Assembly: GCA_030704665.1 (NCBI GenBank)
Contig: JAUYID010000009.1
Span: 394,460 to 458,459, forward strand
Direction: 5' to 3'
Origin: a bacterium
GTDB lineage: Bacteria > Patescibacteriota > Microgenomatia > Woykebacterales > RBG-16-39-9b
DNA: 64,000 nt
Shown: positions 3,735 to 55,487 of the stretch, in pieces
Layout: every line of letters begins with the position of its first letter
Position numbering within the stretch: the stretch's first letter is position 1
The notes under the pieces: generated by a model
What the model was told of the DNA's origin: nothing
Database searches by the model: none
Seen by the model: only the letters and a program-made list of their open reading frames with translations
Translations under genes and position numbers: made by a program

Positions 3735-3778
3735 GAGAAAAAAAGCCGCGGAGGCCTAAAGGGCAGGTTTGCTTTAGG
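3735..3778 (-). terminator. putative intrinsic terminator of the LPXTG-protein gene
   Basis: On the minus strand an 8-bp stem (CCTAAAG...CTTTAGG) spans the stop codon and is followed after about 10 nt by TTTTTTTCTC. Confidence 0.4.
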
Positions 3779-4562
3779 CGAGGAAACGAGTTCGCAGTTT
3801 TCCTTCAGAGCTTCTTAACAAAAGTCCTGCTGCAAGGGTCAGTAAGACTGGAAGTACGGGAAGGCTGCTACCAGTCACAGGTAGACCACCGACATTTTCT
3901 CCGAGGACTGTCCCGGGTGTTTTAGGAGTTCCCGGCTCTTCTGGATTAGTTCCTGGTGTTGGAGTAGGTCCGACGTTGTTGTTATTGCCAGTATTTCCGA
4001 TCCCGATAGTGAAATTGATATCACCAGTGCTGATCGTTGCTTCCCCAGTATTTTTATCAGCTTCGTTGTTACCAGTGTTCAGATCAACCTGGGCTTGGTT
4101 GTTTATGTTCATCACGTTACTCTGATTGAGAGTCAAGGAGTTGTTTATATCAACCCTTGAAGTGTTGGTTGAGTTAGCACCGGTCTGGGTATTGGCGGAT
4201 GATGACGCTTCTGAGCTTCCACAACACGTTGGTGGGTTGATGTTGCTGCTGTTGAGTGTGTTATTTACAGTCAGAGAACCGTTGATGTCTCCGGTAGTGA
4301 TCGAGGCATCCCCAGTGTTTTTGCTAGCTTGGTTGCCTCCAGTGTTGGCGCTGATTTTGATTGTATTAACTACATTTGCTTCATTGTTTGAAGAAATAGT
4401 AACTTGGTTTGATGTTTCAACAGAGGCGGTATTTTCAGAATCAGCTCCAGTAGTGTCGTTGGTAGCGCTGTCAGCCAAAGCTAACGGTGCGGTCAGCAAC
4501 AGGGCTGCGATCGTGGAGCCGATAAGGGAGCTTTTTACAACTAGATTTTTCGTATGTACCAC
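3774..4562 (-). CDS. secreted cell-surface repeat protein with C-terminal LPXTG sortase anchor
   Basis: Signal peptide (LLLTAPLALADSA), then N/T/G/S-rich repeats of the form ANTGGNQASKNTGDASITTGD. The C-terminus is LPVTG plus a hydrophobic stretch plus RSSEGKLRTRF, a classical cell-wall sorting signal. Confidence 0.75.
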   Translation of the reverse strand: MVHTKNLVVKSSLIGSTIAALLLTAPLALADSATNDTTGADSENTASVETSNQVTISSNNEANVVNTIKISANTGGNQASKNTGDASITTGDINGSLTVNNTLNSSNINPPTCCGSSEASSSANTQTGANSTNTSRVDINNSLTLNQSNVMNINNQAQVDLNTGNNEADKNTGEATISTGDINFTIGIGNTGNNNNVGPTPTPGTNPEEPGTPKTPGTVLGENVGGLPVTGSSLPVLPVLLTLAAGLLLRSSEGKLRTRFLA

Positions 4563-6769
4563 CTCCCTCTGACCAATTTCAGAATTGTTTGGGCAGAGGC
4601 GGCAGTAATAATCAAGATAAAGATAAGGTTGCGCAGTGAGAGTCCACCCGAGGCTTGGTTGACGACCTGAGTAATATTTGGTGTTCCAAAGTTGTCCGAA
4701 ACACCCATGACTAAGGATTTTTTGTCTTGGCTTTCGGCACTGGCGCTCTGCTCGCCCGTGCTGCCGGGGTTGGAACCTGTATTGGAAGATCCTGTTGTGG
4801 TGTTACTACCCAGGATAGAGTTGATCACTTTATTGCTTGGGTTGTTTTTTCCGTGATCTAAGCCAGTAGAGCCAATGTTTTCTGCTGGCTTGCCGTCAGG
4901 AAAGATATCCCCATTGAAGCTTCCAAAAATATTCACAATACTTACGATCATACGAGAACCTAGAAAAGTGTTGTTCAGTATATTGAGGACGTTGGCAGCG
5001 ACGTTGACGTCTCCGGTCTTGATCGAAGCATTGCCGGTGTTCTTGCTAGCTTGGTTGCCTCCAGTGTTGGCGTTGATCTGAATATTGTTGTCAACAGTAC
5101 CTGAGTTGTTGACTTGAACAGTATTTGTGTTGTTGGCGCTAGAGTCAGCACTGTTGCTGCTGTCAGCTCCTGTTTGGTTGTTGACTGCCATCAGAGAGCC
5201 GTCAGGACCAACTACAAAGCTAAAGAAAGGAGAAGCTACTCCATCCTCATTCAGACTCATCAACTGACCAGTCCAGTTACCTAAATTGTTTACCAAAACG
5301 AGCCAGAGAGTACCGTCACTTCCAGCGGTGGTAGTGTTGGCGATGGTTGCTGTTTTAAGGTTGGCGTTGACATCCCCAGTTTGAATACTGGAGGTCCCAG
5401 TGTTTTTGTCAGCTGTATTATCACCAGTGTTGGCGTTGAGATTTATTCCGTTCAAGACGTTGGCGGTGTTGTTTACTCCAAGAGTTGAGCTGTTGTTAGT
5501 TGAGCTATCGGCAAAGTTGGCTGAATCGGAACCAGTAGTTAAGTTGGCGGCATTGAGGCTTTCCGGTGAAAAGATTGTCGAAGTTTCTCCGACTGGGGGT
5601 GGATTGAAGACAATATCTCCATTTAAGTTTCCGAAAACGTTGACTACCCCAAGCAAGAGTTCACCGGCTCCACCCAGAAAAGTGTTGTTCAAAAAGTTGA
5701 TCACGTTGACGGCAACATTGGCATCTCCCGTAGTAATCGTCCCGTCACCGGTGTTTTTACTGGCTGAGTTGTCACCGGTGTTGGCATCTAGAGTCGTAGA
5801 GTTGACCAGATTGCCGTTGTTGTCGATAAAGTAAGTGTTTGAAGTGTTGGAAGTTGCGGAAGCAGTGTTGCTACTCTCAGCTCCGGTGGTGTCGTTGCTA
5901 CTGGCTTGGCCAGTTCCAGCGGCAGTTTGGAGAACTTGAAGATCATCGAAATTCAAGATTAAGTCTCCGCTTTGATCATCCATGACATTGAAAACTTGAG
6001 CTCCCACGTTAACATTGTTACCAACGTTGATGGCGGTGAGAGTCAGGTCAGCATCCCCAGTAACAACCGAGCCGTCGCCAGTATTTTTGTCGGCAGTATT
6101 GTCACCAGAATTGGCTGTCAAAGTGGTCAGATTTTGTACATCGAGGTCGTTGTCAATATAAACATCAGTTGTGCTGTTGCTTTCTGAAGAAGCGTCGTTT
6201 TCCGAACCTGCTCCAGTGTTGGAATTGCTTGCCTCACCACTGACAGCGAGACAAGTTGAGATCGCACAAATGCTTGGATCCATTGCTCCAATTGAAACTT
6301 TGTTTGCATCTGAGCTTAGGTTGGCGACCAAACCTGCATCTCCGCTGACAACCGAGCCGTCGCCAGTGTTTTTATCTGAGCTGCTCTCACCGGTGTTCGC
6401 TTCCCCACTTGTAACGTTGAGGAGACTAGCGGTGTTGTCGACGTTGACCGAAGTATCAGAGTTAGTTGTGGTACTAGCGCTATTGGTTGAATCTGCTCCG
6501 GTGTTGGAATTGGTAGCGGCCGCGGCGGCCGCGGCTGCCTCGGCGGCGGCAGCTTCGGCTTCAGCCTTGCGGGCAGCTCTTTCGGCGGTCCATTTTTCGT
6601 ACCAGTTGTTTGGGTCATTCCAATCGATTTGGCTGCTGTCAGTTGTCGTAGTCGTAGTAGTGCCCGTCTCTCCTTCTGCTAGTACTGGGGCAACCAAACC
6701 AAAGCTTGAATAAGCTACCAAGAGTAAGCTGAGTAAAAGGCTAATTGTTTTTTGACTAAATTTTTTCAT
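4541..6769 (-). CDS. large secreted repeat protein (742 aa), paralogous to the neighbouring genes
   Basis: Signal peptide (LLLSLLLVAYSSFGLVAPVLAEG), a poly-Thr and Ala-rich linker, then at least 6 copies of the NTGDNxAxKNTGDGSVxTGDA unit alternating with NVxNxLNNTFLG segments. A C-terminal hydrophobic segment is followed by a basic tail. Confidence 0.75.
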   Translation of the reverse strand: MKKFSQKTISLLLSLLLVAYSSFGLVAPVLAEGETGTTTTTTTDSSQIDWNDPNNWYEKWTAERAARKAEAEAAAAEAAAAAAAATNSNTGADSTNSASTTTNSDTSVNVDNTASLLNVTSGEANTGESSSDKNTGDGSVVSGDAGLVANLSSDANKVSIGAMDPSICAISTCLAVSGEASNSNTGAGSENDASSESNSTTDVYIDNDLDVQNLTTLTANSGDNTADKNTGDGSVVTGDADLTLTAINVGNNVNVGAQVFNVMDDQSGDLILNFDDLQVLQTAAGTGQASSNDTTGAESSNTASATSNTSNTYFIDNNGNLVNSTTLDANTGDNSASKNTGDGTITTGDANVAVNVINFLNNTFLGGAGELLLGVVNVFGNLNGDIVFNPPPVGETSTIFSPESLNAANLTTGSDSANFADSSTNNSSTLGVNNTANVLNGINLNANTGDNTADKNTGTSSIQTGDVNANLKTATIANTTTAGSDGTLWLVLVNNLGNWTGQLMSLNEDGVASPFFSFVVGPDGSLMAVNNQTGADSSNSADSSANNTNTVQVNNSGTVDNNIQINANTGGNQASKNTGNASIKTGDVNVAANVLNILNNTFLGSRMIVSIVNIFGSFNGDIFPDGKPAENIGSTGLDHGKNNPSNKVINSILGSNTTTGSSNTGSNPGSTGEQSASAESQDKKSLVMGVSDNFGTPNITQVVNQASGGLSLRNLIFILIITAASAQTILKLVRGRWYIRKI

Positions 6770-6906
6770 TTGTTTTTCTATTCTTTCCTGGGCGGTTAAA
6801 AACCCACTTTTCCTTTTGTAAAAAATGTACTTTTAACTACCCGACCTCTTCCCGGCTCCCTGTCTCTCCGGAAAACCCGGAGAGACAAAGGGATCGGTAA
6901 CAGACA

Positions 6907-8070
6907 TTAGTTGCTGCTGTTTACATTTACGTCTACATCGACGTTGTTGTTGCTGCCATCAGCCTCGTCTCCGTTAACGGAGTTTTCGTTGGCACTGCTG
7001 GAAACTTCAACATCAACATCAGCATCACCAGTGTGCTGGTCGTCAGCTGTGTTTTTGTTGGTTTCGTTGTCACCAGTGTTTGCACTGATTTTTCCGCTGT
7101 TCTTCACGTTGGCCTCGTTGTCTTGATCGATGTCAAGATCGTTGTCAGCAGAAGCTTCAGCTTTGTTTTTTGAATCCGCACCAGTTTTTTCATTGGCGGC
7201 TTCGAGTTCAACATCACAGCAAGCGTCGACGTTTGCTGAGTTGGAGTTGGCATTGTTTTCAATTCCAACCTCAACTTTAGCGTCACCAGTGTCGACAGAG
7301 CCTTCACCAGTGTTTTTGTTTGCTTCGTTGTCTCCGGTGTTGGCTTCAACGTCTACGTCATTGCAGAGGTTGGCGTCGTTATCTTGGTCGATATCGACAT
7401 CGGTTTCTACAGATGCGTCGGCGTAGTTTTCAGAATCAGCTCCAGTGGTGTCATTGGAAGCAGAAACACTTCCACCGTCACCCCCGCTGATGCTAACTGA
7501 ATTCTCGTTTACCATATTGGCGATGCTGACAACTACTTCAGCGTCTCCAGTGGTGACGTTACCTTCACCAGTGTTTTTGTTTGCTTCGTTGTCTCCGGTG
7601 TTTGAGCTGACACTTACGCTGTTGAAAACGTTGGCCTCGTTGTCTTGATCGACATCGATGTCGTTGTCAACTGAAGCTTCAGCAATGTTCTTGGAGTCGG
7701 CACCAGTTTTGGTGTTAGAAGCTGAGACATCACCAGTACAAGCTCCACAGTTGTCAAGACTGACAGTGTTGGAGTTGGCGGTGTTGCTCAAAGAAACTGT
7801 GACGGAAGCGTCACCAGTGGTGACGGAACCTTCGCCAGTGTTCTTGTTTGCTGTGTTTCCACCAGTGTTTGAAGAGACGCTAATGTTGTTTACAATATTA
7901 GCTTCATTCTTCTGATCGATATCTACATCGTTATTAGTGCTGACTTCCGCTTCATTGTAGGAACCGTAACCCGTAGTGTCGTTGCTAGCAGTTCCCGCCA
8001 AAGCTGGAGTCAAAGAGAAAGCAAGGGATGCTACCGCAGATGCTGCAGCAGCAATTACTTTTTTGTTCAT
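6907..8070 (-). CDS. secreted acidic repeat protein (387 aa), same repeat family
   Basis: Signal peptide (ASLAFSLTPALAGTAS) and four copies of SSNTGDNEANKNTGEGxVTTGDAxVxV. Asp/Asn rich, consistent with calcium binding. SD AAAGGGGGTG lies upstream of the ATG. Confidence 0.7.
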   Translation of the reverse strand: MNKKVIAAAASAVASLAFSLTPALAGTASNDTTGYGSYNEAEVSTNNDVDIDQKNEANIVNNISVSSNTGGNTANKNTGEGSVTTGDASVTVSLSNTANSNTVSLDNCGACTGDVSASNTKTGADSKNIAEASVDNDIDVDQDNEANVFNSVSVSSNTGDNEANKNTGEGNVTTGDAEVVVSIANMVNENSVSISGGDGGSVSASNDTTGADSENYADASVETDVDIDQDNDANLCNDVDVEANTGDNEANKNTGEGSVDTGDAKVEVGIENNANSNSANVDACCDVELEAANEKTGADSKNKAEASADNDLDIDQDNEANVKNSGKISANTGDNETNKNTADDQHTGDADVDVEVSSSANENSVNGDEADGSNNNVDVDVNVNSSN

Positions 8071-12268: not shown

Positions 12269-12323
12269 GAATTTAATTTTAACCTAATTACCCTACCGCA
12301 GCAACAAGAGCAAAATAAAAAGC

Positions 12324-21194: not shown

Positions 21195-21407
21195 ATGCGA
21201 CAAAAAATTATTAAAGTTGGCAATTCGGCTGCAGTTACCATCCCAAAAAATATTCTTGAGGAAAAAAATCTTAAGATTGGTGACTTAGCTGAGTTTGATA
21301 TTCAGTCGATTAGCAAAAAAACAAAAGTTACCCCAGAATTTGTTGAATGGGTTGATAAGTATATCGAAAACAACCGCCCAGCACTTGAAGAGCTAGCCAA
21401 CAAATAA
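21195..21407 (+). CDS. AbrB/MazE/SpoVT-fold antitoxin
   Basis: IIKVGNSAAVTIPKNIL is the swapped-hairpin AbrB-type DNA-binding motif. 70 aa; 6 nt upstream of the doc gene. Confidence 0.8.
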   Translation: MRQKIIKVGNSAAVTIPKNILEEKNLKIGDLAEFDIQSISKKTKVTPEFVEWVDKYIENNRPALEELANK

Positions 21408-21413
21408 AGCAAC

Positions 21414-21791
21414 ATGAAATATCCTTCTTTGGACGAAGTAGTTGCTTTGCATTTTCGTATTACTGAAAAGACAGGCGGTTCTCAAGGAGTTCGAGACTGG
21501 GGCCTTTTAGCCTCGGCTTTAGGTCGTCCCCAAGCGAGTTTTGCTGGTGAAGATCTCTACCCTTCTTTGGAACTTAAAGCAGCGGCTCTAATCCAGTCTT
21601 TATCCTCCAACCATCCTTTTGTTGATGGTAATAAACGAACAGCTTTAGCAACACTGGAATATTTTTTGTTTTTAAATAAAGGTGAATTAAGAGCAACACA
21701 AAGAGAAAGGGTCGACTTTACACTTTGGGTGGAGAACGAAAAACCAAGTCTCGAAGAAATTTCACTTTGGATCAAGAAACACTTTAAATAA
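21414..21791 (+). CDS. doc: Doc (death-on-curing) Fic-fold toxin
   Basis: HPFVDGNKRTALA is the Fic/Doc active-site motif. 125 aa. Confidence 0.85.
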   Translation: MKYPSLDEVVALHFRITEKTGGSQGVRDWGLLASALGRPQASFAGEDLYPSLELKAAALIQSLSSNHPFVDGNKRTALATLEYFLFLNKGELRATQRERVDFTLWVENEKPSLEEISLWIKKHFK

Positions 21792-22600: not shown

Positions 22601-22745
22601 AACCCTCTCCTTGTTTAGTTTGGTTTGGATTGTAAGTTTCTTTTGGGTTGTTGTCAAAGTGAAAAATTTGAGAAAATTTGCCAATGAAAAAGGGAAGTCC
22701 TTTGCTGGGGCTTCCCTTGTTCGTGTTGTTCGCGCGGTTCGGATC

Positions 22746-23201
22746 TCAGGACTGGGCGAAGAGTCTGACACTGTTGGCCGCCTCGACGACGAGTTCGACG
22801 TCCTTCTTTGAATCGGGAACACCGGAGAAGGCAGCGACGCCGACGAAACTTTCGGGGCTGCAATCATCCAATGCGAAGAGAGCAACACCGCCTTCGAAGG
22901 TGGTCTCGATGTCCTTGCCGTGCCCGTTGCGGATCTTCTGTTCCAGCGGGCCGGTGTTGGCCTGCAGGAAGAGGGCGGTCCTAGCTTTCTTGTGCGCGGT
23001 TGCGTTGTGGCGCGGCTGCCAGTCTCCCATTGGAGTTTGAACGAGCACCTCGCCGGCCGGGTCGAGCACAATGAAGGCACCACGTCTGGGTTGCTTGCCG
23101 ATAAACTTCTCGCGAAAGTGTTCCCGTACGTAGGTTGCCATCTCCATCGCTGTCACGTCGCTGATCGAGCGTCTGATCCGAAGCTTGGACGGGTCAATCA
23201 T
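22746..23201 (-). CDS. GlcG/DUF336-family protein
   Basis: HKKARTALF...TFEGGVALFALDD...GVAAFSGVPDSKKDVELVVEAA match the conserved blocks of DUF336/GlcG. Confidence 0.6.
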   Translation of the reverse strand: MIDPSKLRIRRSISDVTAMEMATYVREHFREKFIGKQPRRGAFIVLDPAGEVLVQTPMGDWQPRHNATAHKKARTALFLQANTGPLEQKIRNGHGKDIETTFEGGVALFALDDCSPESFVGVAAFSGVPDSKKDVELVVEAANSVRLFAQS

Positions 23202-23339
23202 GTCTCTTCTCCCTCTGGAAAGCCAGATAGACTGGCGAACAAAACGTTATCGGAAATTATAGCAAAAATTGAGGCTAAAGTCAAATACTATAAGTCACTC
23301 GTAGCTGATATTTCCTACCGGAAATCAGCTACTGCGTGT

Positions 23340-23567
23340 CTTGCGTTCAAGCATAGTCTGACGACTATTTGCTTGATCTTGGGATTTTCAAAAGAAGTTG
23401 AGTTTTAAAGTCCCGCAACCACTGCGTGGTTGTAGGCTAATCTTTGAGGGCTCTATCAAGAAAAGCTTGCGTTCTACGAACTTGGGATTTTCGAAAGAGA
23501 ATAAGTTTTAAAGTCCCGCAACTGCTGCGCAGCTGTAGGCCTCTTTGAGGGCTAGATCAAGAAAAGC
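23340..23567. repeat. tandem direct repeat (about 126 bp then about 102 bp) with internal hairpin
   Basis: Both copies begin CTTGCGTTC...CTTGGGATTTTC...GTTTTAAAGTCCCGCAAC[hairpin]GTAGGC...TTTGAGGGCT..ATCAAGAAAAGC. The hairpin stems differ by compensatory changes (CCAC/GTGG versus CTGC/GCAG). Confidence 0.7.
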
Positions 23568-23618
23568 CAGGGATCCTAAAAATTGTTTTGATTGGAATAA
23601 AAACTGAGGTGTGAGGAG

Positions 23619-23648
23619 ACTCCCGTTGTTTGTTGCGCCAACGGGAGT
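23619..23648. repeat. conserved hairpin element, copy 1 (ACTCCCGTTG-N10-CAACGGGAGT)
   Basis: Perfect 10-bp inverted repeat 26 nt 3' of the TetR stop. Shares flanks GGAATAAAAA...GAGACTCCCG...GGGAGTCCCT with copy 3. Confidence 0.7.
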
Positions 23649-23673
23649 CCCTGGTCCTGTCTGGAAGAGCTCT

Positions 23674-24321
23674 TCAGTACTCTTTCAGGACAGCGCCTTG
23701 GGCAATCGAGAAGAGAGTCGCAGCGATCTCCCTGACGCTGGGTTCGGTTTCCCTGCGCAGGTGGTCAAAGGCCGCGAAGTTTGAGAGTTGGTTGAAAGTG
23801 CCAAAGCTGCAGAGCAGACAGAGCGTCCGAACCGCTTGGGCTTGGCTGACTCCCTTCTTCAGTTTTCCGGCAGAGAGGCGTTTCACCAAGTTTTCGATTT
23901 GGTGGCGCTGAAGGATCTCGAGCTCTTCTTGCGGCTGGAACTTCTCGCCCCGCAGAGTGAAGAAGCCTTCGAGACTGCGCATGATCTCGTAGTATCTGCA
24001 CCAGACTCTGACCCAAGTCTTCAGCACTTCTCGGAGTGCGACCACTGGGTCAGCGTGGAGAGAAGCTGTTTCAGTGCTATGAAGATCCCCTTCCTTGATT
24101 CGCCCGACTTCATCCTCGAAGATCGTGATGAGAAGAGCTTCCAAAGAGTGAAAGTGCTGGTAAACAGTGGGGCGGGTGAAACCGGCACTTTTGGCGATCG
24201 TCCGAATGTTGGCTGCGCAGAGACCCTCGTCTATGATCAGGGCTAGAGCAGAGTCAAGAATACGACGACGCGTCCGTGTAACAGTCTCGAGACGTTTGAC
24301 CGAGTGATACGGTCTTGGCAT
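23674..24321 (-). CDS. TetR/AcrR-family transcriptional regulator
   Basis: N-terminal HTH (RRRILDSALALIIDEGLCAANIRTIAKSAGFTRPTVYQHF) typical of TetR. Confidence 0.8.
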   Translation of the reverse strand: MPRPYHSVKRLETVTRTRRRILDSALALIIDEGLCAANIRTIAKSAGFTRPTVYQHFHSLEALLITIFEDEVGRIKEGDLHSTETASLHADPVVALREVLKTWVRVWCRYYEIMRSLEGFFTLRGEKFQPQEELEILQRHQIENLVKRLSAGKLKKGVSQAQAVRTLCLLCSFGTFNQLSNFAAFDHLRRETEPSVREIAATLFSIAQGAVLKEY

Positions 24322-24356
24322 TGCGGGTCCCTTTCTTTCCCTGGTAGTGGGTGGGA

Positions 24357-24386
24357 ACTCCCGTTGTTTGTTGCGCCAACGGGAGT
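24357..24386. repeat. conserved hairpin element, copy 2
   Basis: Identical 10-bp stems and loop to copy 1. Lies 22 nt 3' of the 24408 gene stop and 35 nt 5' of the TetR start. Confidence 0.7.
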
Positions 24387-24407
24387 CCCTGCTCTTTGTT
24401 TTTCCGC

Positions 24408-24926
24408 TTAGTCGACCAAACGCACTCCGTCAAGTGGTGGGGCGATGATCTGTCTGGCGCGAAATTCCAGGGTTACCGCTTCTTGCTCGACATTGTCAGC
24501 CTCGGAACGTTTCTTTCGTGCTTCTTCAGCCTTGACGGAGATTTGGGCGAGAAGAACGGTCCGCAGGGTCTGAAGTGTGAGAGAAACGTGAGCGTCCCAG
24601 TTGTAGGGTAGATTCTCAATCCCGCTTTCCATCCGGGCAATTCTTCCTTCTCTTCTTGAGAACAGGTACGAGAAGCTAGAATCGCTGGCGAAAGCGATCT
24701 TTAACCAGAACGACCCTCCCAGAAGTGTGAAGTAGAGCTGGTAGACTGTCGTTGCCTCAGCAGGAGGATACCGGTCCTCGTAGAAATTGATGCGGTGCAG
24801 CTCGTTGCTGAGACCAGAGAGATTGAAGATCTTGGTTCCAGCTTCCAGAGCACCTTTGTTAACGCTCGGATCAACTTCGCCTAGCGGCAAAGTGATACGA
24901 CAGCCCCTTGTCTCTTCCTGATCCAT
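24408..24926 (-). CDS. hypothetical protein
   Basis: 172 aa with no recognised motif. GC-rich codon usage like its neighbours. Confidence 0.4.
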   Translation of the reverse strand: MDQEETRGCRITLPLGEVDPSVNKGALEAGTKIFNLSGLSNELHRINFYEDRYPPAEATTVYQLYFTLLGGSFWLKIAFASDSSFSYLFSRREGRIARMESGIENLPYNWDAHVSLTLQTLRTVLLAQISVKAEEARKKRSEADNVEQEAVTLEFRARQIIAPPLDGVRLVD

Positions 24927-25059
24927 GACTCATCCCTTTCTTGCGGACTATCCGCAAAAACTTGTTCTGACACGACTATCGTGCAGATCAGAATGGATTT
25001 TACTAAAAATGGTTGGGTGATGCAACTATGGGTCTTGTGGAATAAAAATGTTGGTAGAG

Positions 25060-25086
25060 ACTCCCGTTTGTGGGCGAAACGGGAGT
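25060..25086. repeat. conserved hairpin element, copy 3 (ACTCCCGTTT-N7-AAACGGGAGT)
   Basis: 10-bp stem with a matching stem change (G to T and C to A) and a shorter loop. Lies 20 nt 3' of the 25106 gene stop. Confidence 0.65.
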
Positions 25087-25105
25087 CCCTTGATCTCTGC
25101 TTCTT

Positions 25106-25705
25106 CTAGCGGCGCCGTGTCAGCTCGCCCAGATCGATGACGTGGACTCCTCTCAGGTTGAGACCAGGTCGATGATCCTGTTGACAGGGGCGGATGTGAA
25201 GGTGGCAGTCCGGCGCGAAGCTTGGGTGTTCCTCGATCCACTTTCGGTGTGCTTCACGAACTGGCTCCATCAAGCCGGCGACGAACTCCTTCTCGAGGTG
25301 GTTCTGGGCCACATGCTGGAAGTGAGCGAAGACGTTGGTGTAGACGGTTTGGAAAGCCGGGGCTCCATCTTCCCTGGTCCAGGCTTCTTCCACCATTTCG
25401 CGTACCACGATTCGGTAGAGGGCCAAGATCTCCCGGGTCAGGGCTTCTCGATTCTCTGCCACCACGAAGTCACCTATCTCGGGGTCATTTTCGACCGCCT
25501 CCCTGACCGCGTCGATGTGATTTGTGACTCGGATGTCGCGGATAAGTCGTGCGGTGCTTTGCCCAGAGAGTGTGGGAAAAAGACCTCCCACCTCGGCCTC
25601 AACGGTGTCTGGGTTGTCCAAGAGGTAACCAAGACTGTAACCGGTTGTCACGATTGATCCTTCCTTTCGATCGCTAGGTTCCTTTTTGTGTTTAAATTTT
25701 AACAC
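25106..25705 (-). CDS. hypothetical protein
   Basis: 199 aa, largely helical. No confident family assignment. Confidence 0.4.
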   Translation of the reverse strand: MLKFKHKKEPSDRKEGSIVTTGYSLGYLLDNPDTVEAEVGGLFPTLSGQSTARLIRDIRVTNHIDAVREAVENDPEIGDFVVAENREALTREILALYRIVVREMVEEAWTREDGAPAFQTVYTNVFAHFQHVAQNHLEKEFVAGLMEPVREAHRKWIEEHPSFAPDCHLHIRPCQQDHRPGLNLRGVHVIDLGELTRRR

Positions 25706-25791
25706 ACTGCATCAACTATAGGGTAAGATGGGAGGTGGAAAGGAATTTATTTTAGAACTTGGGAGTGGAGTTGGATTTCGCTTCTGGAAAA

Positions 25792-26184
25792 TTAGGAAAT
25801 TTCTTTGATACTTCTCTTACAGTTCTTACTTCCGCAGTTGCAGGCCATCTCCATACCTGGAGGCATATCTTGAGAGTAATCGCTGGTTATTTCTTCACCT
25901 TTTTGAATAGTTCGTGTTGCTATATCAGAAAATTCTCTAGGTTCGGTATTGGCATCGCAAGAATGGTTGACGTATCTTTCAGGCTCTTGCATAGCGACAT
26001 ACTTACCGTCCTTGAAAGCAACATATTCTTGGTCTTTGTCTGAAAGTTGGGCAAACTCTTTTTTAGTCAAAAGGTGTGAGGTGTCCCACTGCAGCACCAC
26101 TTCGCCTTTGTGGAAGTTGCGAGCGGCGAAAACTCCCTGACCATCGATGTTTGAGTGTTCAAGAAAAACTTGGTCTGTTTTCAT
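25792..26184 (-). CDS. SET-domain protein (putative protein-lysine methyltransferase)
   Basis: NHSCDAN (the SET NHSC motif) plus a post-SET Cys cluster (CNCGSKNC) in a 130-aa protein. Confidence 0.75.
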   Translation of the reverse strand: MKTDQVFLEHSNIDGQGVFAARNFHKGEVVLQWDTSHLLTKKEFAQLSDKDQEYVAFKDGKYVAMQEPERYVNHSCDANTEPREFSDIATRTIQKGEEITSDYSQDMPPGMEMACNCGSKNCKRSIKEIS

Positions 26185-26585
26185 TTTACCTTGACTACAA
26201 GTTCTTCAAAACTAGTTTCGGGGTCTAGTTCTCGACTGAAGACGCGGTCTTCAAACTCGACTAGAGTCACCTCGGCGGTGATGCGCACAGTCCCTTCTTT
26301 GAGGTGGCCGCCCACTACTGAGCCATCTTTGCGGGAGACGCTGATGTGGATGTGAGACTCCCCTTCTCCGAGAGTTCCTTCGACAGAGACGATCTCCAAG
26401 TCTTCTTCAAAAACTTTTTTATCTGCCTTTTCCGGAGTGGCTCCGGGCATCCGTAAAGTTACTTGGTTCAAGCCGCCGACAATACTTATTATAGTAGAGG
26501 CCGTGATCGAGTTGTCCGCACAATATTGGAGCAAAGAGGCACGAAGTTTTTCTCTCGGGTGGAGTCGGAAGGTGTGGAATTTCAA
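26181..26585 (-). CDS. PPC-domain (DUF296) protein
   Basis: TIISIVGGLNQVTLRMPG...EIVSVEGTLGEGESHIHISVS...VVGGHL match PCC/DUF296 conserved blocks. Overlaps the SET gene by 4 nt. Confidence 0.65.
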   Translation of the reverse strand: MKFHTFRLHPREKLRASLLQYCADNSITASTIISIVGGLNQVTLRMPGATPEKADKKVFEEDLEIVSVEGTLGEGESHIHISVSRKDGSVVGGHLKEGTVRITAEVTLVEFEDRVFSRELDPETSFEELVVKVK

Positions 26586-26914
26586 AAAAGCTTACCCCCA
26601 ATTTTGGCGTCTTTGTCTGGTCGGACTAGTACTACTCTCCCCTGCTCGTCTGGGACACCTAAAGTTAAACATTCGGAAATAAAGGGGCCAATTTGTTTGG
26701 CTGGGAAGTTGACGACACCGAGTACCAACGTTCCGGTTAGTTCTTCTTTTTTGTAAAGATCGGCGACTCGAGCGCTGGATTTTTTAATACCAATTTCCGG
26801 ACCAAAATCGATAGTCAACTTATAAGCCGGTTTTCGAGCCTGCGGAAAATCCTCAACTTTAATTATCTCGCCGAGCCGAATATCGAGCTTAGAAAAATCT
26901 TCGTAGGAAATCAT
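26582..26914 (-). CDS. tRNA-binding OB-fold protein (CsaA/Trbp111-like)
   Basis: EDFSKLDIRLGEIIKVEDFPQARKPAYKLTIDFG is the tRNA-binding Myf-domain signature. Confidence 0.75.
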   Translation of the reverse strand: MISYEDFSKLDIRLGEIIKVEDFPQARKPAYKLTIDFGPEIGIKKSSARVADLYKKEELTGTLVLGVVNFPAKQIGPFISECLTLGVPDEQGRVVLVRPDKDAKIGGKLF

Positions 26915-30496: not shown

Positions 30497-30506
30497 AATC
30501 GTGTTA

Positions 30507-30839
30507 TGTCATCCTGAGCGATTAGCGAAGGATCTCGTCCCCCAAGTCTTTCCAAACCTGATTGTTGGTTTCTATTAAACTGATCTTTTTTGATCTCAGC
30601 CAACCTTTTATTCTCTTCTCGCTTTCAATAGCTTGACTTGAATTTTCAAATTCTTCAAAGAAAACAAGCTTATTCAGATTGTACTTTTTGCTAAACCCAT
30701 CGATCAGTTTATTTTTATTCTCAAAAAGTCTTCTTTTTAGATTGTTTGTAACACCTGTGTAGAGAACTCTGTTTAGCTTGTTGGTAATAATATAAACGTA
30801 ATAACTCATGAGATTCTTCAGCTCCGCCTCAGAATGACA
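30507..30839 (-). mobile_element. GIY-YIG element bounded by about 30-bp terminal inverted repeats
   Basis: Left arm TGTCATCCTGAGCGATTAGCGAAGGATCTC and right arm GAGATTCTTCAGCTCCGCCTCAGAATGACA are inverted repeats. The GIY-YIG ORF fills the space between them exactly: its ATG abuts the right arm and its last codons (EILR, stop) are encoded by the left arm. Confidence 0.7.
30522..30809 (-). CDS. GIY-YIG nuclease-family protein (95 aa)
   Basis: YYVYIITNKLNRVLYTGVTNNLKRRLFEH contains the GIY-YIG motifs and matches the COG2827/YhbQ-like small URI-domain proteins. Confidence 0.85.
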   Translation of the reverse strand: MSYYVYIITNKLNRVLYTGVTNNLKRRLFENKNKLIDGFSKKYNLNKLVFFEEFENSSQAIESEKRIKGWLRSKKISLIETNNQVWKDLGDEILR

Positions 30840-43654: not shown

Positions 43655-43659
43655 AGTGC

Positions 43660-43992
43660 TGTCATCCTGAGTGACTAGCGAAGGATCTCTTCTGCTAAGT
43701 CATTCAAATTAGGGTTTTTAGCTTGAATTAAATTTATCTTTTTAATTCTTAGCCAGCCTTTAATCTTCTTTTCTGCTCTCAAAGCGTCCTCAACATTGTT
43801 AAATTCTTCAAAGAAGATCAGCTTAGTTAGATTGTACCTCTTTGTAAACCCCTCAATCAATTCGCCTTTATGCTCCAAAACTCTCCGCTCCAGGTTGTTT
43901 GTTACTCCTGTGTACAGGGAAGTATTAGTTTTGTTAGTTAAAATATAAACGTAATAACCCACTAGATTCTTCGCCTTTAGCTCAGAATGACA
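43660..43992 (-). mobile_element. second GIY-YIG element bounded by TIRs
   Basis: Left arm TGTCATCCTGAGTGACTAGCGAAGGATCTC, right arm TAGATTCTTCGCCTTTAGCTCAGAATGACA. The ORF spans from the right arm (GTG start) to the left arm (EEILR, stop). Confidence 0.7.
43675..43962 (-). CDS. GIY-YIG nuclease-family protein (95 aa), paralogue of 30522..30809
   Basis: GYYVYILTNKTNTSLYTGVTNNLERRVLEHK; about 65 percent identical to the first copy. GTG start. Confidence 0.85.
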   Translation of the reverse strand: MGYYVYILTNKTNTSLYTGVTNNLERRVLEHKGELIEGFTKRYNLTKLIFFEEFNNVEDALRAEKKIKGWLRIKKINLIQAKNPNLNDLAEEILR

Positions 43993-47528: not shown

Positions 47529-47559
47529 TGAAAAACAAAATGTCCACCCGACGGGTGGA
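47529..47559 (-). terminator. intrinsic terminator (TGTCCACCCG..CGGGTGGACA) of the 47615 gene
   Basis: GC-rich palindrome followed on the minus strand by TTTTGTTTTTC. A near-identical copy lies at 55465-55487. Confidence 0.55.
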
Positions 47560-47614
47560 CAAAGGTTATCAGGAGTGTTGGGCAGGTGTTGGACGGGCCC
47601 TCTACTCCTTTGTC

Positions 47615-55458: not shown

Positions 55459-55487
55459 TGAAAAGTGTCCACCCGTCGGGTGGACAC
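55459..55487 (-). terminator. second copy of the GTGTCCACCCG..CGGGTGGACAC palindrome
   Basis: 10-bp perfect stem followed on the minus strand by TTTTCATTCC. Confidence 0.4.

What the first reader, a model, noticed from the sequence alone, without database searches (positions are those of the whole stretch)
23619..25086. Three copies of a conserved perfect 10-bp-stem hairpin element, each about 20-26 nt downstream of consecutive minus-strand genes around a TetR regulator
ACTCCCGTTG-(tttgttgcgc)-CAACGGGAGT occurs at 23619 and 24357, with a variant ACTCCCGTTT-(gtgggcg)-AAACGGGAGT at 25060. Its flanks are also conserved (GGAATAAAAA...GAGACTCCCG and GGGAGTCCCT). Each copy sits at a fixed distance after the stop codon of gene 25106, gene 24408 and the TetR gene respectively. 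Copy 2 is also only about 35 nt upstream of the TetR start. The stem change in copy 3 is compensatory, which argues for selection on structure. The element could be an inter-cistronic RNA processing or stability element, an unusual terminator (a U-tract follows 13-15 nt later in copies 1 and 3), or a palindromic operator for the TetR protein.
Basis: seen in the sequence. Interest (0 to 1): 0.6.

Follow-up and report, generated by a model that had tools for sequence, protein, structure and literature searches.

The report
Conserved end-of-gene hairpin, repeated three times
Three near-identical stem-loops follow three neighbouring genes of an uncultivated bacterium; they belong to a small family of end-of-gene hairpins also found in related groundwater bacteria, and most likely mark or protect transcript ends rather than bind the nearby TetR regulator.

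Summary
Three copies sit at 23619-23648, 24357-24386 and 25060-25086; none appears in shuffles and there are no further copies in the 64-kb window. Copies 1 and 2 share an exact 35-nt run.

On the gene-sense (minus) strand each stem extends to 13-14 bp through a G.U pair, which would be an A.C mismatch on the other strand.

All three upstream genes are near-orphans. Gene 25106 has two distant homologs (about 30% identity) in other metagenomes, and both are followed by the same hairpin base (CAGGGACUCCCG...CGGGAGUC) with a compensating upper stem.

The same stem also follows unrelated genes in a related groundwater contig and after lipA in another contig. There it is directly followed by a U-run, as in a classical terminator.

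Across 8 members, four pairs covary, 91% of cells pair and a 6-bp core is invariant. No member outside the window has a TetR gene nearby. Loop length varies from 7 to 17 nt. Better operator-like palindromes lie in the 24408 upstream region.

Best reading: a lineage-specific, REP-like or terminator-type 3'-end RNA hairpin, multiplied locally. It is a new member of a known kind, of modest interest. Why the sequence itself is so conserved is not explained.

The parts
23616..23651 (-). Hairpin copy 1 (W1), extended 13-bp stem, loop GCGCAACAAA, 22 nt after the TetR stop codon
   Evidence: Fold with flanks: -29.2 kcal/mol, z = -3.7.
24354..24389 (-). Hairpin copy 2 (W2), 13-bp stem with a G.U pair, same loop as W1. 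It lies 18 nt after the stop of gene 24408 and 32-35 nt before the TetR ATG.
   Evidence: I24; -32.7 kcal/mol, z = -5.2
25056..25090 (-). Hairpin copy 3 (W3), 14-bp stem, loop CGCCCAC, 15 nt after the stop of gene 25106
   Evidence: I15; -22.4 kcal/mol, z = -4.8
25091..25099 (-). Conserved single-stranded 5' flank CAGAGAUCA of W3. The same flank is seen in L090 (CAGAGAUCA), L003 (UAGAGAUUA) and L086 at 2790 (UAGAGAUCUCA).
23593..23603 (-). U-rich tail TTTTTATTCCA, starting 15 nt after the W1 stem
25038..25048 (-). U-rich tail TTTTTATTCCA, starting 11 nt after the W3 stem
25106..25705 (-). Gene 25106. The ORF is 199 aa; the source annotates 181 aa from the GTG at 25651. It belongs to a 3-member family of unknown function with a conserved C-terminal W..HPSFxPxxHLHxxP motif. 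All three members are followed by the hairpin.
24408..24926 (-). Gene 24408, 172 aa, an orphan with no homolog and no family hit
23674..24321 (-). TetR-family regulator, 215 aa (PF00440). Apart from the match to itself in the source record, its only homolog is 36% identical.
24997..25025 (-). Weak promoter-like site TTGCAT-17-TAAAAT (8 of 12 matches) downstream of W3, candidate promoter for 24408-tetR. Read by eye, below the scan threshold.
   Evidence: not listed
24941..24986 (-). Two palindromes around an ATAGT centre: CTGCACGATAGTCGTGTCAG (24967-24986) and TTGCGGATAGTCCGCAA (24941-24957). They are better candidates for the TetR operator than the hairpins.
   Evidence: inference from position and shape only

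Best explanation
The three elements are sense-strand RNA stem-loops of a lineage-specific family of conserved end-of-gene hairpins, of the terminator or REP-like type.

W3 is the resident hairpin of the 25106 gene family. W1 and W2 are younger local copies that share 35 identical nt. They probably arose by duplication or recombination of a hairpin-plus-tail module when the 24408-tetR segment was put together.

Proposed working (inferred, not shown):
- The hairpin forms in the nascent mRNA 15-22 nt after the stop codon.
- At W1 and W3, which carry a downstream U-rich tail and are followed by promoter-like sites, it ends or strongly attenuates transcription and protects the 3' end from exonucleases.
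- At W2, which has no U-run and no promoter before tetR, transcription reads through at least in part. The hairpin then acts as an intercistronic attenuator and stabiliser that favours the upstream gene over tetR. This is what has been shown for E. coli REP325 in the yjdMN operon.
For: Shown directly:
- The repeat is real and local.
- In all three copies the stem extends to 13-14 bp on the minus-strand RNA through a G.U pair, which is an A.C mismatch on the plus strand.
- Homologs of gene 25106 (P0006, P0007; about 30% identity to it and to each other) carry CAGGGACUCCCGCC...GGCGGGAGUCCUCUG downstream.
- The same stem follows an unrelated small gene in L086 (GACUCCCGUC..GACGGGAGU UUCUUUUAUC), another in L086 (AGACUCCC..GGGAGUCU UUCUUUUUC) and lipA in L003 (AGGGACUCCCGUUG..CAACGGGAGU UUUUUG). 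These are canonical intrinsic-terminator shapes.
- On the 8-member alignment, 91% of cells pair, 4 pairs change on both sides (reached by 4 of 500 shuffles), slid controls pair at 39-55%, and there are 9 G.U cells in the lower stem.
- All 8 members have the same orientation relative to the upstream gene.
- Such hairpins occur once in 1.34 Mb of unrelated genomes, against 3 in the window and 3-4 in 12.5 kb of L086.
- L086 is a relative: its C39 peptidase is 53% identical to the window's.
- Other genes in the window also end in strong hairpins without a U-run.
- No promoter-like site lies between W2 and the tetR ATG. A strong one (23284-23256) follows W1 and a weak one follows W3.

Precedent: REP325 acts as both a partial terminator and an upstream-mRNA stabiliser (bioRxiv 10.64898/2026.03.23.713779).
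Against: - None of the three window copies has a U-run next to the stem. It starts 11-15 nt after the 10-bp stem in W1 and W3 and is absent in W2, so they fail the classical intrinsic-terminator definition.
- Terminator-like sites are not enriched in this region.
- A plain terminator does not explain the invariant 6-bp core ACUCCC/GGGAGU.
- Nor does it explain the conserved unpaired flank YAGAGAUYA, which is shared across genes whose proteins are only about 30% identical. By contrast, the 3' flanks of the 53%-identical C39 genes are not conserved.
- There are no expression data.
- The rest of the 938-kb source contig could not be searched.
- The promoter after W3 matches only 8 of 12 positions.
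Confidence: 0.6

Rival explanations
1. A REP/REPIN-like mobile DNA palindrome. The hairpin would be a multi-copy element spread as single-stranded DNA by a RAYT/IS200-type tyrosine transposase encoded elsewhere in the genome. Any effect on transcripts would be secondary.
For: - An invariant core and conserved flank occur behind unrelated genes in several genomes.
- The family is strongly enriched over unrelated genomes.
- Assemblies break at the element in L005 and at the end of the L001 contig, where two copies abut.
- The window holds other repeated palindrome families.
Against: - Only 3 copies occur in 64 kb, all within 1.5 kb, with no diverged copies.
- All copies are single and in direct orientation, not inverted pairs.
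- All 8 members are in sense orientation.
- No Y1 transposase or other recombinase was found among the 60 ORFs scanned in the window, and no such Pfam hit is listed in L086.
- There is no conserved GTAG-type 5' tetranucleotide.
- The copy behind the 25106 family sits at an orthologous position in three genomes.
Confidence: 0.15
2. A sequence-specific binding site on RNA or DNA for a dedicated lineage-specific protein, possibly the 25106-family protein itself, for example for autoregulation through its own 3' UTR.
For: - All three known family members are followed by the hairpin.
- L090 and L086c hairpin elements are 82% identical, while the adjacent proteins are 30% identical.
- The unpaired flank CAGAGAUCA is conserved.
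- The core never varies.
Against: - The same hairpin follows unrelated genes: lipA in L003, small genes in L086, and 24408 and tetR here.
- About 4 of 10 terminator-like hairpins in L086 are of this type, so co-occurrence with three family members could be chance (roughly 0.06).
- The protein has no recognisable nucleic-acid-binding fold or family. The AF2 model has pLDDT 55.7 and is all-helical, and Foldseek, Pfam and PDB searches give nothing.
Confidence: 0.1
3. A recombination site of a cassette system (attC-like). Each unit of gene plus hairpin would be a cassette captured by site-specific recombination at the hairpin.
For: - Three consecutive, co-oriented, unrelated orphan genes are each followed by the same palindrome.
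- A 35-nt exact direct repeat brackets tetR.
- GC3 of the block 22746-25705 (0.57-0.73) is higher than that of its immediate neighbours, though other genes in the window reach 0.56-0.62.
- L086 shows an array of small orphan genes with repeated intergenic modules.
Against: - There are no RYYYAAC/GTTRRRY boxes at the stem base.
- The stems are perfect, with no extrahelical bases.
- The element is 30-36 nt, against 57-141 for attC.
- No integrase was found in the window.
- The genes in L086 have their own promoters and U-run terminators.
Confidence: 0.05
4. A palindromic operator bound by the neighbouring TetR-family repressor.
For: - The element is palindromic.
- Copy 2 is 35 nt upstream of the tetR ATG.
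- Copies lie upstream of 24408 and of the HbpS-like gene as well.
Against: - Family members in L086, L090 and L003 have no TetR gene nearby.
- The only TetR homolog locus has no such hairpin.
- Half-site spacing varies from 7 to 17 nt, while the arms covary to keep pairing.
- The distance to the downstream start codon is 35, 133 or 417 nt, but the position after the upstream stop codon is constant.
- No promoter overlaps any copy.
- Two 13-17-bp palindromes centred on ATAGT lie between the weak promoter and the 24408 start.
Confidence: 0.03

Closest known systems
REP (repetitive extragenic palindromic) elements of Enterobacteria and Pseudomonas, e.g. REP325 in yjdMN and the malE-malF REP
   Same: - Short GC-rich extragenic palindrome, repeated with conserved sequence.
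- Placed in 3' UTRs and between cistrons.
- Shown in E. coli to act as a partial terminator and as a stabiliser of the upstream mRNA.
- Families are conserved between related genomes.
   Different: - Only three clustered copies in 64 kb.
- Perfect rather than imperfect stems.
- Single copies in one orientation, not inverted pairs (BIME/REPIN).
- No GTAG-type motif and no RAYT found.
- Genome-wide copy number is unknown.
Rho-independent (intrinsic) terminators
   Same: - GC-rich stem-loop shortly after the stop codon on the sense strand.
- Relatives of the same hairpin family (L003, L086 at 2790 and 4594) carry the U-run directly after the stem.
   Different: - In the window the U-run is displaced by 11-15 nt (W1, W3) or absent (W2).
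- Stem sequence, not only structure, is conserved between unrelated genes and genomes. Ordinary terminators do not show this.
Uptake-sequence pairs forming terminators (Neisseria DUS, Haemophilus USS)
   Same: A fixed 10-12-nt sequence occurs as an inverted pair forming terminator stems after many unrelated genes, with variable loops (own knowledge).
   Different: - DUS/USS occur about once per kb and also as single copies inside genes.
- Here the 7-9-mers occur almost only in the three hairpins within 64 kb.
Integron attC sites, including clusters of attC sites lacking an integrase (CALIN)
   Same: A palindromic repeat follows each of several co-oriented, unrelated small genes.
   Different: - No R/L boxes and no extrahelical bases.
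- Too short.
- No integrase found.
- Genes in the related array have their own promoters and terminators.

Membership tests
REP / REPIN | Short GC-rich extragenic palindrome | tested here: met
   10-14-bp stems, all intergenic
REP / REPIN | Many dispersed copies per genome | tested here: inconclusive
   3 clustered copies and no others in 64 kb. The rest of the 938-kb contig is not available. There are 3-4 copies in 12.5 kb of relative L086.
REP / REPIN | Associated RAYT (Y1 transposase) and a conserved 5' GT[AG]G; inverted pairs | tested here: not met
   No Y1_Tnp or other recombinase among the 60 ORFs scanned in the window. No conserved GTAG at a fixed position. All copies are single and co-oriented. 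A RAYT elsewhere in the genome cannot be excluded.
Intrinsic terminator | GC-rich hairpin on the sense strand downstream of the stop codon | tested here: met
Intrinsic terminator | U-run within 0-2 nt of the stem | tested here: not met
   W1: U5 starts 15 nt after the stem. W3: 11 nt. W2: none. The feature is met in relatives L003, L086 at 2790 and L086 at 4594.
Intrinsic terminator | Transcripts end there | not testable with these tools
   No RNA data
TetR operator | Palindrome with fixed half-site spacing overlapping the regulated promoter | tested here: not met
   Spacer is 10, 10 and 7 nt here and 8-17 nt in relatives. No promoter-like site overlaps any copy.
TetR operator | Co-occurrence with the regulator gene in related loci | tested here: not met
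   Hairpin occurs without TetR in L086, L090 and L003. The TetR homolog locus L004 has no hairpin.
Integron attC | R''/R' boxes (RYYYAAC...GTTRRRY), extrahelical bases, 57-141 nt | tested here: not met
   Read directly from the sequence: the stem base is AGGGACUCCC/GGGAGUCYC, the stems are perfect, and the element is 30-36 nt.
Integron attC | IntI integrase nearby | tested here: not met
   None in the window. Integrase-less clusters (CALIN) are known, so this feature alone does not exclude membership.
DNA uptake sequence (DUS/USS) | About one copy per kb, including inside genes | tested here: not met
   GGGAGTCCC occurs only in the three hairpins. ACTCCCG occurs 6 times in 64 kb, 3 of them in the hairpins.
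Any Rfam family | Score at or above the gathering threshold | tested here: not met
   No hit at gathering threshold in the window. Only chance-level hits (E > 3) in 23150-25150.
CRISPR array | Repeats at regular short spacing with spacers of similar size | tested here: not met
   Spacing is 738 and 700 nt, and the intervals hold whole genes.

The most novel reading that the evidence does not exclude
The invariant ACUCCC/GGGAGU core and the conserved unpaired flank YAGAGAUYA could be the recognition site of a dedicated protein in this poorly sampled, probably ultra-small groundwater lineage. That protein could be a hairpin-specific recombinase or transposase, or the 25106-family protein (HPSF..HLH motif). 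It would move or shuffle small orphan genes together with their terminator-promoter modules. This would account for cassette-like arrays such as the one in L086 and for the three-fold repeat here.
Probability: 0.1. Interest if true: 0.7.

Novelty: new member of a known kind. Interest (0 to 1): 0.3.

Why it matters
If the main reading holds, this is an undescribed family of end-of-gene hairpins in an uncultivated lineage with no close reference genome; RarA reaches at most 57% identity to anything in GTDB. The stem sequence, and not just the fold, is kept behind unrelated genes and across genomes.

That makes it a practical marker for transcript ends and operon borders in such genomes. It is also a small natural example of one hairpin sitting both at unit ends (with a U-rich tail) and inside an operon (without one).

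The sequence-level conservation is unexplained. It is the only part that could lead somewhere new, namely a dedicated binding protein or a mobility mechanism.

Tried and rejected
- Exact-motif scans of public collections: 0 hits in genome contigs. Three hits in metagenome contigs: one is a chance hit in coding sequence (L002), one is a true relative (L003), and one is a tandem pair at a contig end (L001). Twelve hits in viral contigs lack the conserved flank and are judged chance.
- The source genome could not be reached. Exact look-ups of the TetR protein failed. Only a 2.3-kb Logan contig was found.
- Word-indexed homolog searches for all three genes returned essentially only the query itself. 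Only the exhaustive HMMER search found the two 25106 homologs. Its other two hits are repeat artefacts: P0005 is a eukaryotic sushi-repeat protein and P0008 is a tandem repeat.
- RarA relatives reach at most 57% identity across many phyla, so no close genome exists for synteny.
- Single-sequence AF2 models of the two orphan proteins were poor (pLDDT 55.7 and 39.2). Foldseek, PDB-profile, Pfam, PHROG and PADLOC searches gave nothing usable.
- An HUH-nuclease idea, prompted by the invariant HLH motif, was dropped. There is no invariant tyrosine and the prediction is all-helical.
- blastn of the 2.1-kb block against plasmids and phages gave no match. The viral scan with the 25106 family found none.
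- Homology between the regions downstream of W1 and W3 beyond TTTTTATTCCA is weak; 20 of 300 shuffles reach the score.
- A literature search for the motif string returned only unrelated eukaryotic papers.
Full report
**1. Observation**

No shuffle of the window gives even one match.

Copies 1 and 2 share an exact 35-nt run (23619-23653 = 24357-24391). Copy 3 differs in the loop (7 nt against 10) and in the top pair, which changes from G-C to U-A on both sides.

A covariance model built from the three copies (R1), run over the whole window with filters off, finds only these three. The next best hit has E = 0.33.

An independent Logan assembly of another read set (L005) is identical to window 24362-26698 and stops inside copy 2, as a de Bruijn assembler does at a repeat. 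The feature is real and is not an assembly artefact.

**2. Anatomy**

All three copies lie after consecutive minus-strand genes:
- gene 25106, 199-aa ORF, annotated as 181 aa
- gene 24408, 172 aa
- a TetR-family regulator, 23674-24321

On the minus-strand RNA each stem extends to 13-14 bp: AGGGACUCCCGUUK / MAACGGGAGUYYCY. In every copy the extension uses a G.U pair, which would be an A.C mismatch on the plus strand. Folds with flanks give -22 to -33 kcal/mol, with z from -3.7 to -5.2.

The spacer from the stop codon to the extended stem is 22, 18 and 15 nt for W1, W2 and W3.

W1 and W3 are followed after 15 and 11 nt by the same 11-mer, TTTTTATTCCA. W2 is not.

Promoter context:
- No promoter-like site lies in the 35 nt between W2 and the tetR ATG. 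tetR is therefore most likely transcribed through W2 (inference).
- A strong sigma-70-like site (TTGACT-17-TGnTATAAT, 23284-23256) follows W1 and serves the HbpS-like gene.
- A weak site (TTGCAT-17-TAAAAT, 25025-24997; 8 of 12 matches, read by eye) follows W3.
- After that weak site come two palindromes around an ATAGT centre, at 24967-24986 and 24941-24957.

**3. Surroundings**

Sixty ORFs of the window were scanned against Pfam. They are ordinary chromosomal genes: YebC, RuvC, ClpB-type ATPase, RarA, a histidine kinase, PCMT, a DEAH helicase and others, plus several domains of unknown function. No integrase, transposase or Y1 (RAYT) enzyme was found.

There are no tRNA genes and no Rfam family at gathering threshold. 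Only chance-level hits occur in 23150-25150.

GC3 of the four genes 22746-25705 is 0.57-0.73. The flanking SET, tRNA-binding and Fic genes have 0.29-0.42, but GC3 varies widely along the window.

Many other genes here also end in strong hairpins 10-30 nt after the stop codon, some with a U-run and some without. Consensus terminator sites are not enriched.

**4. Public collections**

The exact motif is absent from 185,579 species-representative genomes. It occurs three times in the metagenome collection.

RarA reaches at most 57% identity to anything in the genome collection, spread over many phyla. The source record is labelled only 'MAG... [bacterium]' and has a 938-kb contig. The lineage therefore has no close reference, and the rest of the genome could not be searched.

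All three genes are near-orphans in the word-indexed search. TetR has a single 36% homolog, and that locus has no such hairpin.

**5. Relatives: the key result**

An exhaustive HMMER search found two true homologs of gene 25106, P0006 and P0007. All three proteins are mutually about 30% identical and share a C-terminal W..HPSFxPxxHLHxxP motif.

Their loci are L090 (a 688-nt metagenome contig) and L086-L089 (Hainich groundwater, 0.1-um fraction). Both carry directly downstream:
- CAGGGACUCCCGCC-(17-nt loop with a small upper stem)-GGCGGGAGUCCUCUG

The stem base is the same as in the window. The upper stem is changed on both sides (GUU/AAC to GCC/GGC).

L090 also shares the unpaired flank CAGAGAUCA with W3.

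L086 comes from a related organism: its C39 peptidase is 53% identical to the window's. Yet the 3' flanks of those two peptidase genes are not alike, at 46% in a global alignment. The two hairpin elements behind the 30%-identical P0006 and P0007 genes, by contrast, are 82% identical.

The same stem also follows unrelated genes:
- L086 at 4594: GACUCCCGUC..GACGGGAGU, then UUUCUUUUAUC
- L086 at 2790: UAGAGAUCUCAGACUCCC..GGGAGUCU, then UUCUUUUUC
- L086 at 2289: a degenerate version
- L003: UAGAGAUUAGGGACUCCCGUUG..CAACGGGAGU, then UUUUUUG, 12 nt after lipA

The L003 flank was not part of the search pattern, so its match shows real relatedness.

About 4 of 10 terminator-like hairpins in the 12.5 kb of L086 are of this type. 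In 1.34 Mb of unrelated genomes (the RarA loci) the relaxed pattern occurs once.

**6. Structure test**

The test used a MAFFT alignment of the eight sense-strand members (A6) with the 13-pair helix.
- 91% of cells pair, against 39-55% when the partner columns are slid.
- Four pairs show changes on both sides; 4 of 500 shuffles reach this.
- Six pairs (ACUCCC/GGGAGU) never vary.
- The three lowest pairs hold 9 G.U cells.

G.U pairs and the uniform orientation (8 of 8 sense to the upstream gene) point to a structure read on the sense strand as RNA.

The members are few and partly related by descent. The counts are therefore supportive, not proof.

**7. Mechanism**

Shown:
- A conserved family of sense-strand hairpins placed after stop codons.
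- Relatives that have the full intrinsic-terminator shape.

Inferred:
- In the window the hairpins act at transcript 3' ends.
- W1 and W3, with a U-rich tail and followed by promoter-like sites, would end or attenuate transcription and shield the 3' end.
- W2, with no tail and no promoter before tetR, would be read through in part. It would work as an intercistronic attenuator and stabiliser that raises 24408 relative to tetR.
- This dual action has been demonstrated for REP325 in the E. coli yjdMN operon (bioRxiv 10.64898/2026.03.23.713779).

W3 looks like the resident copy, because its flank matches the orthologous L090 copy. W1 and W2 are identical to each other and so are recent copies or have been homogenised by conversion. 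W1 additionally shares the tail with W3. This suggests that a hairpin-plus-tail module was duplicated when the 24408-tetR segment arose or was inserted.

Confidence in this overall reading is about 0.6.

**8. Rival readings**

- **Mobile REP/REPIN-like DNA element (about 0.15).** It would explain the sequence-level conservation and the contig breaks. Against it: no transposase was found, the copies are few and single, and all are in sense orientation.
- **Dedicated binding site, possibly for the 25106-family protein (about 0.1).** All three family members carry the hairpin, but so do unrelated genes. The protein has no recognisable fold.
- **attC-like cassette site (about 0.05).** The layout is suggestive, but every attC feature that could be tested fails.
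- **TetR operator (about 0.03).** It is contradicted by the relatives, by the variable spacing with covarying arms, by the position, and by the better palindromes near the 24408 start.

**9. Comparison with known systems and novelty**

The element works like REP elements and terminator hairpins. It fails strict membership tests for REP (no RAYT, no inverted pairs, copy number unknown), for the classical intrinsic terminator (no adjacent U-run in the window copies), and for attC, DUS/USS, CRISPR and every Rfam family.

It is best filed as a new member of a known kind: conserved repeated end-of-gene palindromes.

What remains unexplained is why the core and an unpaired flank are kept so strictly behind fast-evolving genes.

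**10. Limits**

- There are no RNA data.
- Only 64 kb of the genome is available.
- Only four outside loci carry family members.
- The promoter after W3 is weak.
- The TetR operator candidates rest on shape and position alone.

Noticed in passing
window 23365-23575 (minus strand): Two tandem units of about 103 nt, 86% identical. Each has a central hairpin that differs by compensating changes (ACAACCAC-GCA-GUGGUUG against ACAGCUGC-GCA-GCAGUUG). They lie between hairpin W1 and the strong promoter of the HbpS-like gene. No Rfam match. Possibly a structured RNA or a regulatory repeat.
   Followed up: partly
window 30502-30839 and 43655-43992; related ends at 12319, 45400, 50315, 60857: A repeat of about 335 nt (about 83% column identity in the pairwise alignment, flanks included) bounded by the inverted ends TGTCATCCTGAG...CTCAGAATGACA. 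It carries a 95-aa ORF that by eye looks like a small GIY-YIG nuclease (not tested). The same end motif is scattered through the window, so this is a MITE-like or selfish-gene family.
   Followed up: partly
window 47542-47560 and 55467-55485: A second repeated perfect hairpin, GTCCACCCG-N-CGGGTGGAC, in two intergenic regions. None of 100 shuffles gives it.
   Followed up: no
window 24941-24957 and 24967-24986 (minus strand): Two palindromes around an ATAGT centre (TTGCGGATAGTCCGCAA and CTGCACGATAGTCGTGTCAG), between a weak promoter-like site and the start of gene 24408. They are plausible operators of the TetR regulator.
   Followed up: partly
window 24354-24405 (plus strand): Read on the plus strand, hairpin W2 is followed at once by UGCUCUUUGUUUUUCC. 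It therefore fits an intrinsic terminator better in the antisense direction. A 9-of-12 promoter-like site at 24209-24237 (plus strand, inside tetR) points towards it, so a short antisense RNA over the tetR start is conceivable.
   Followed up: no
window 25106-25705; L086 6001-6543; L090 54-596: A three-member protein family of unknown function with an invariant C-terminal motif W..HPSFxPxxHLHxxP. No Pfam, PDB or fold match.
   Followed up: partly
L086 1-12543: An array of small co-oriented orphan genes. Each has its own promoter module (AATTTGCCCACTTCTTT..AGTGCTAAnAT, three copies) and a hairpin-plus-U-run terminator. The intergenic modules are repeated between unrelated genes.
   Followed up: partly
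window 22686-22722 and L086 about 1588-1620: A second terminator stem type (AAGGGAAG...CTTCCCTT followed by a U-run) is shared by the window and the related contig.
   Followed up: no
window 3774-8070 (minus strand): Three large ORFs built from diverged repeats with periods of about 261-267 nt and 285-351 nt. No Pfam hit for the two ORFs that were scanned.
   Followed up: no
window 21195-21791 (plus strand): A MazE-like antitoxin plus a Fic/Doc toxin pair with low GC3 (0.29-0.31), about 1.8 kb from hairpin W1.
   Followed up: no
L001 1120-1169: Two abutting copies of an ACTCCCGTTT / AAACGGGAGT hairpin at the very end of a 1.2-kb metagenome contig. Possibly a clustered multi-copy relative of the family in another organism.
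   Followed up: partly
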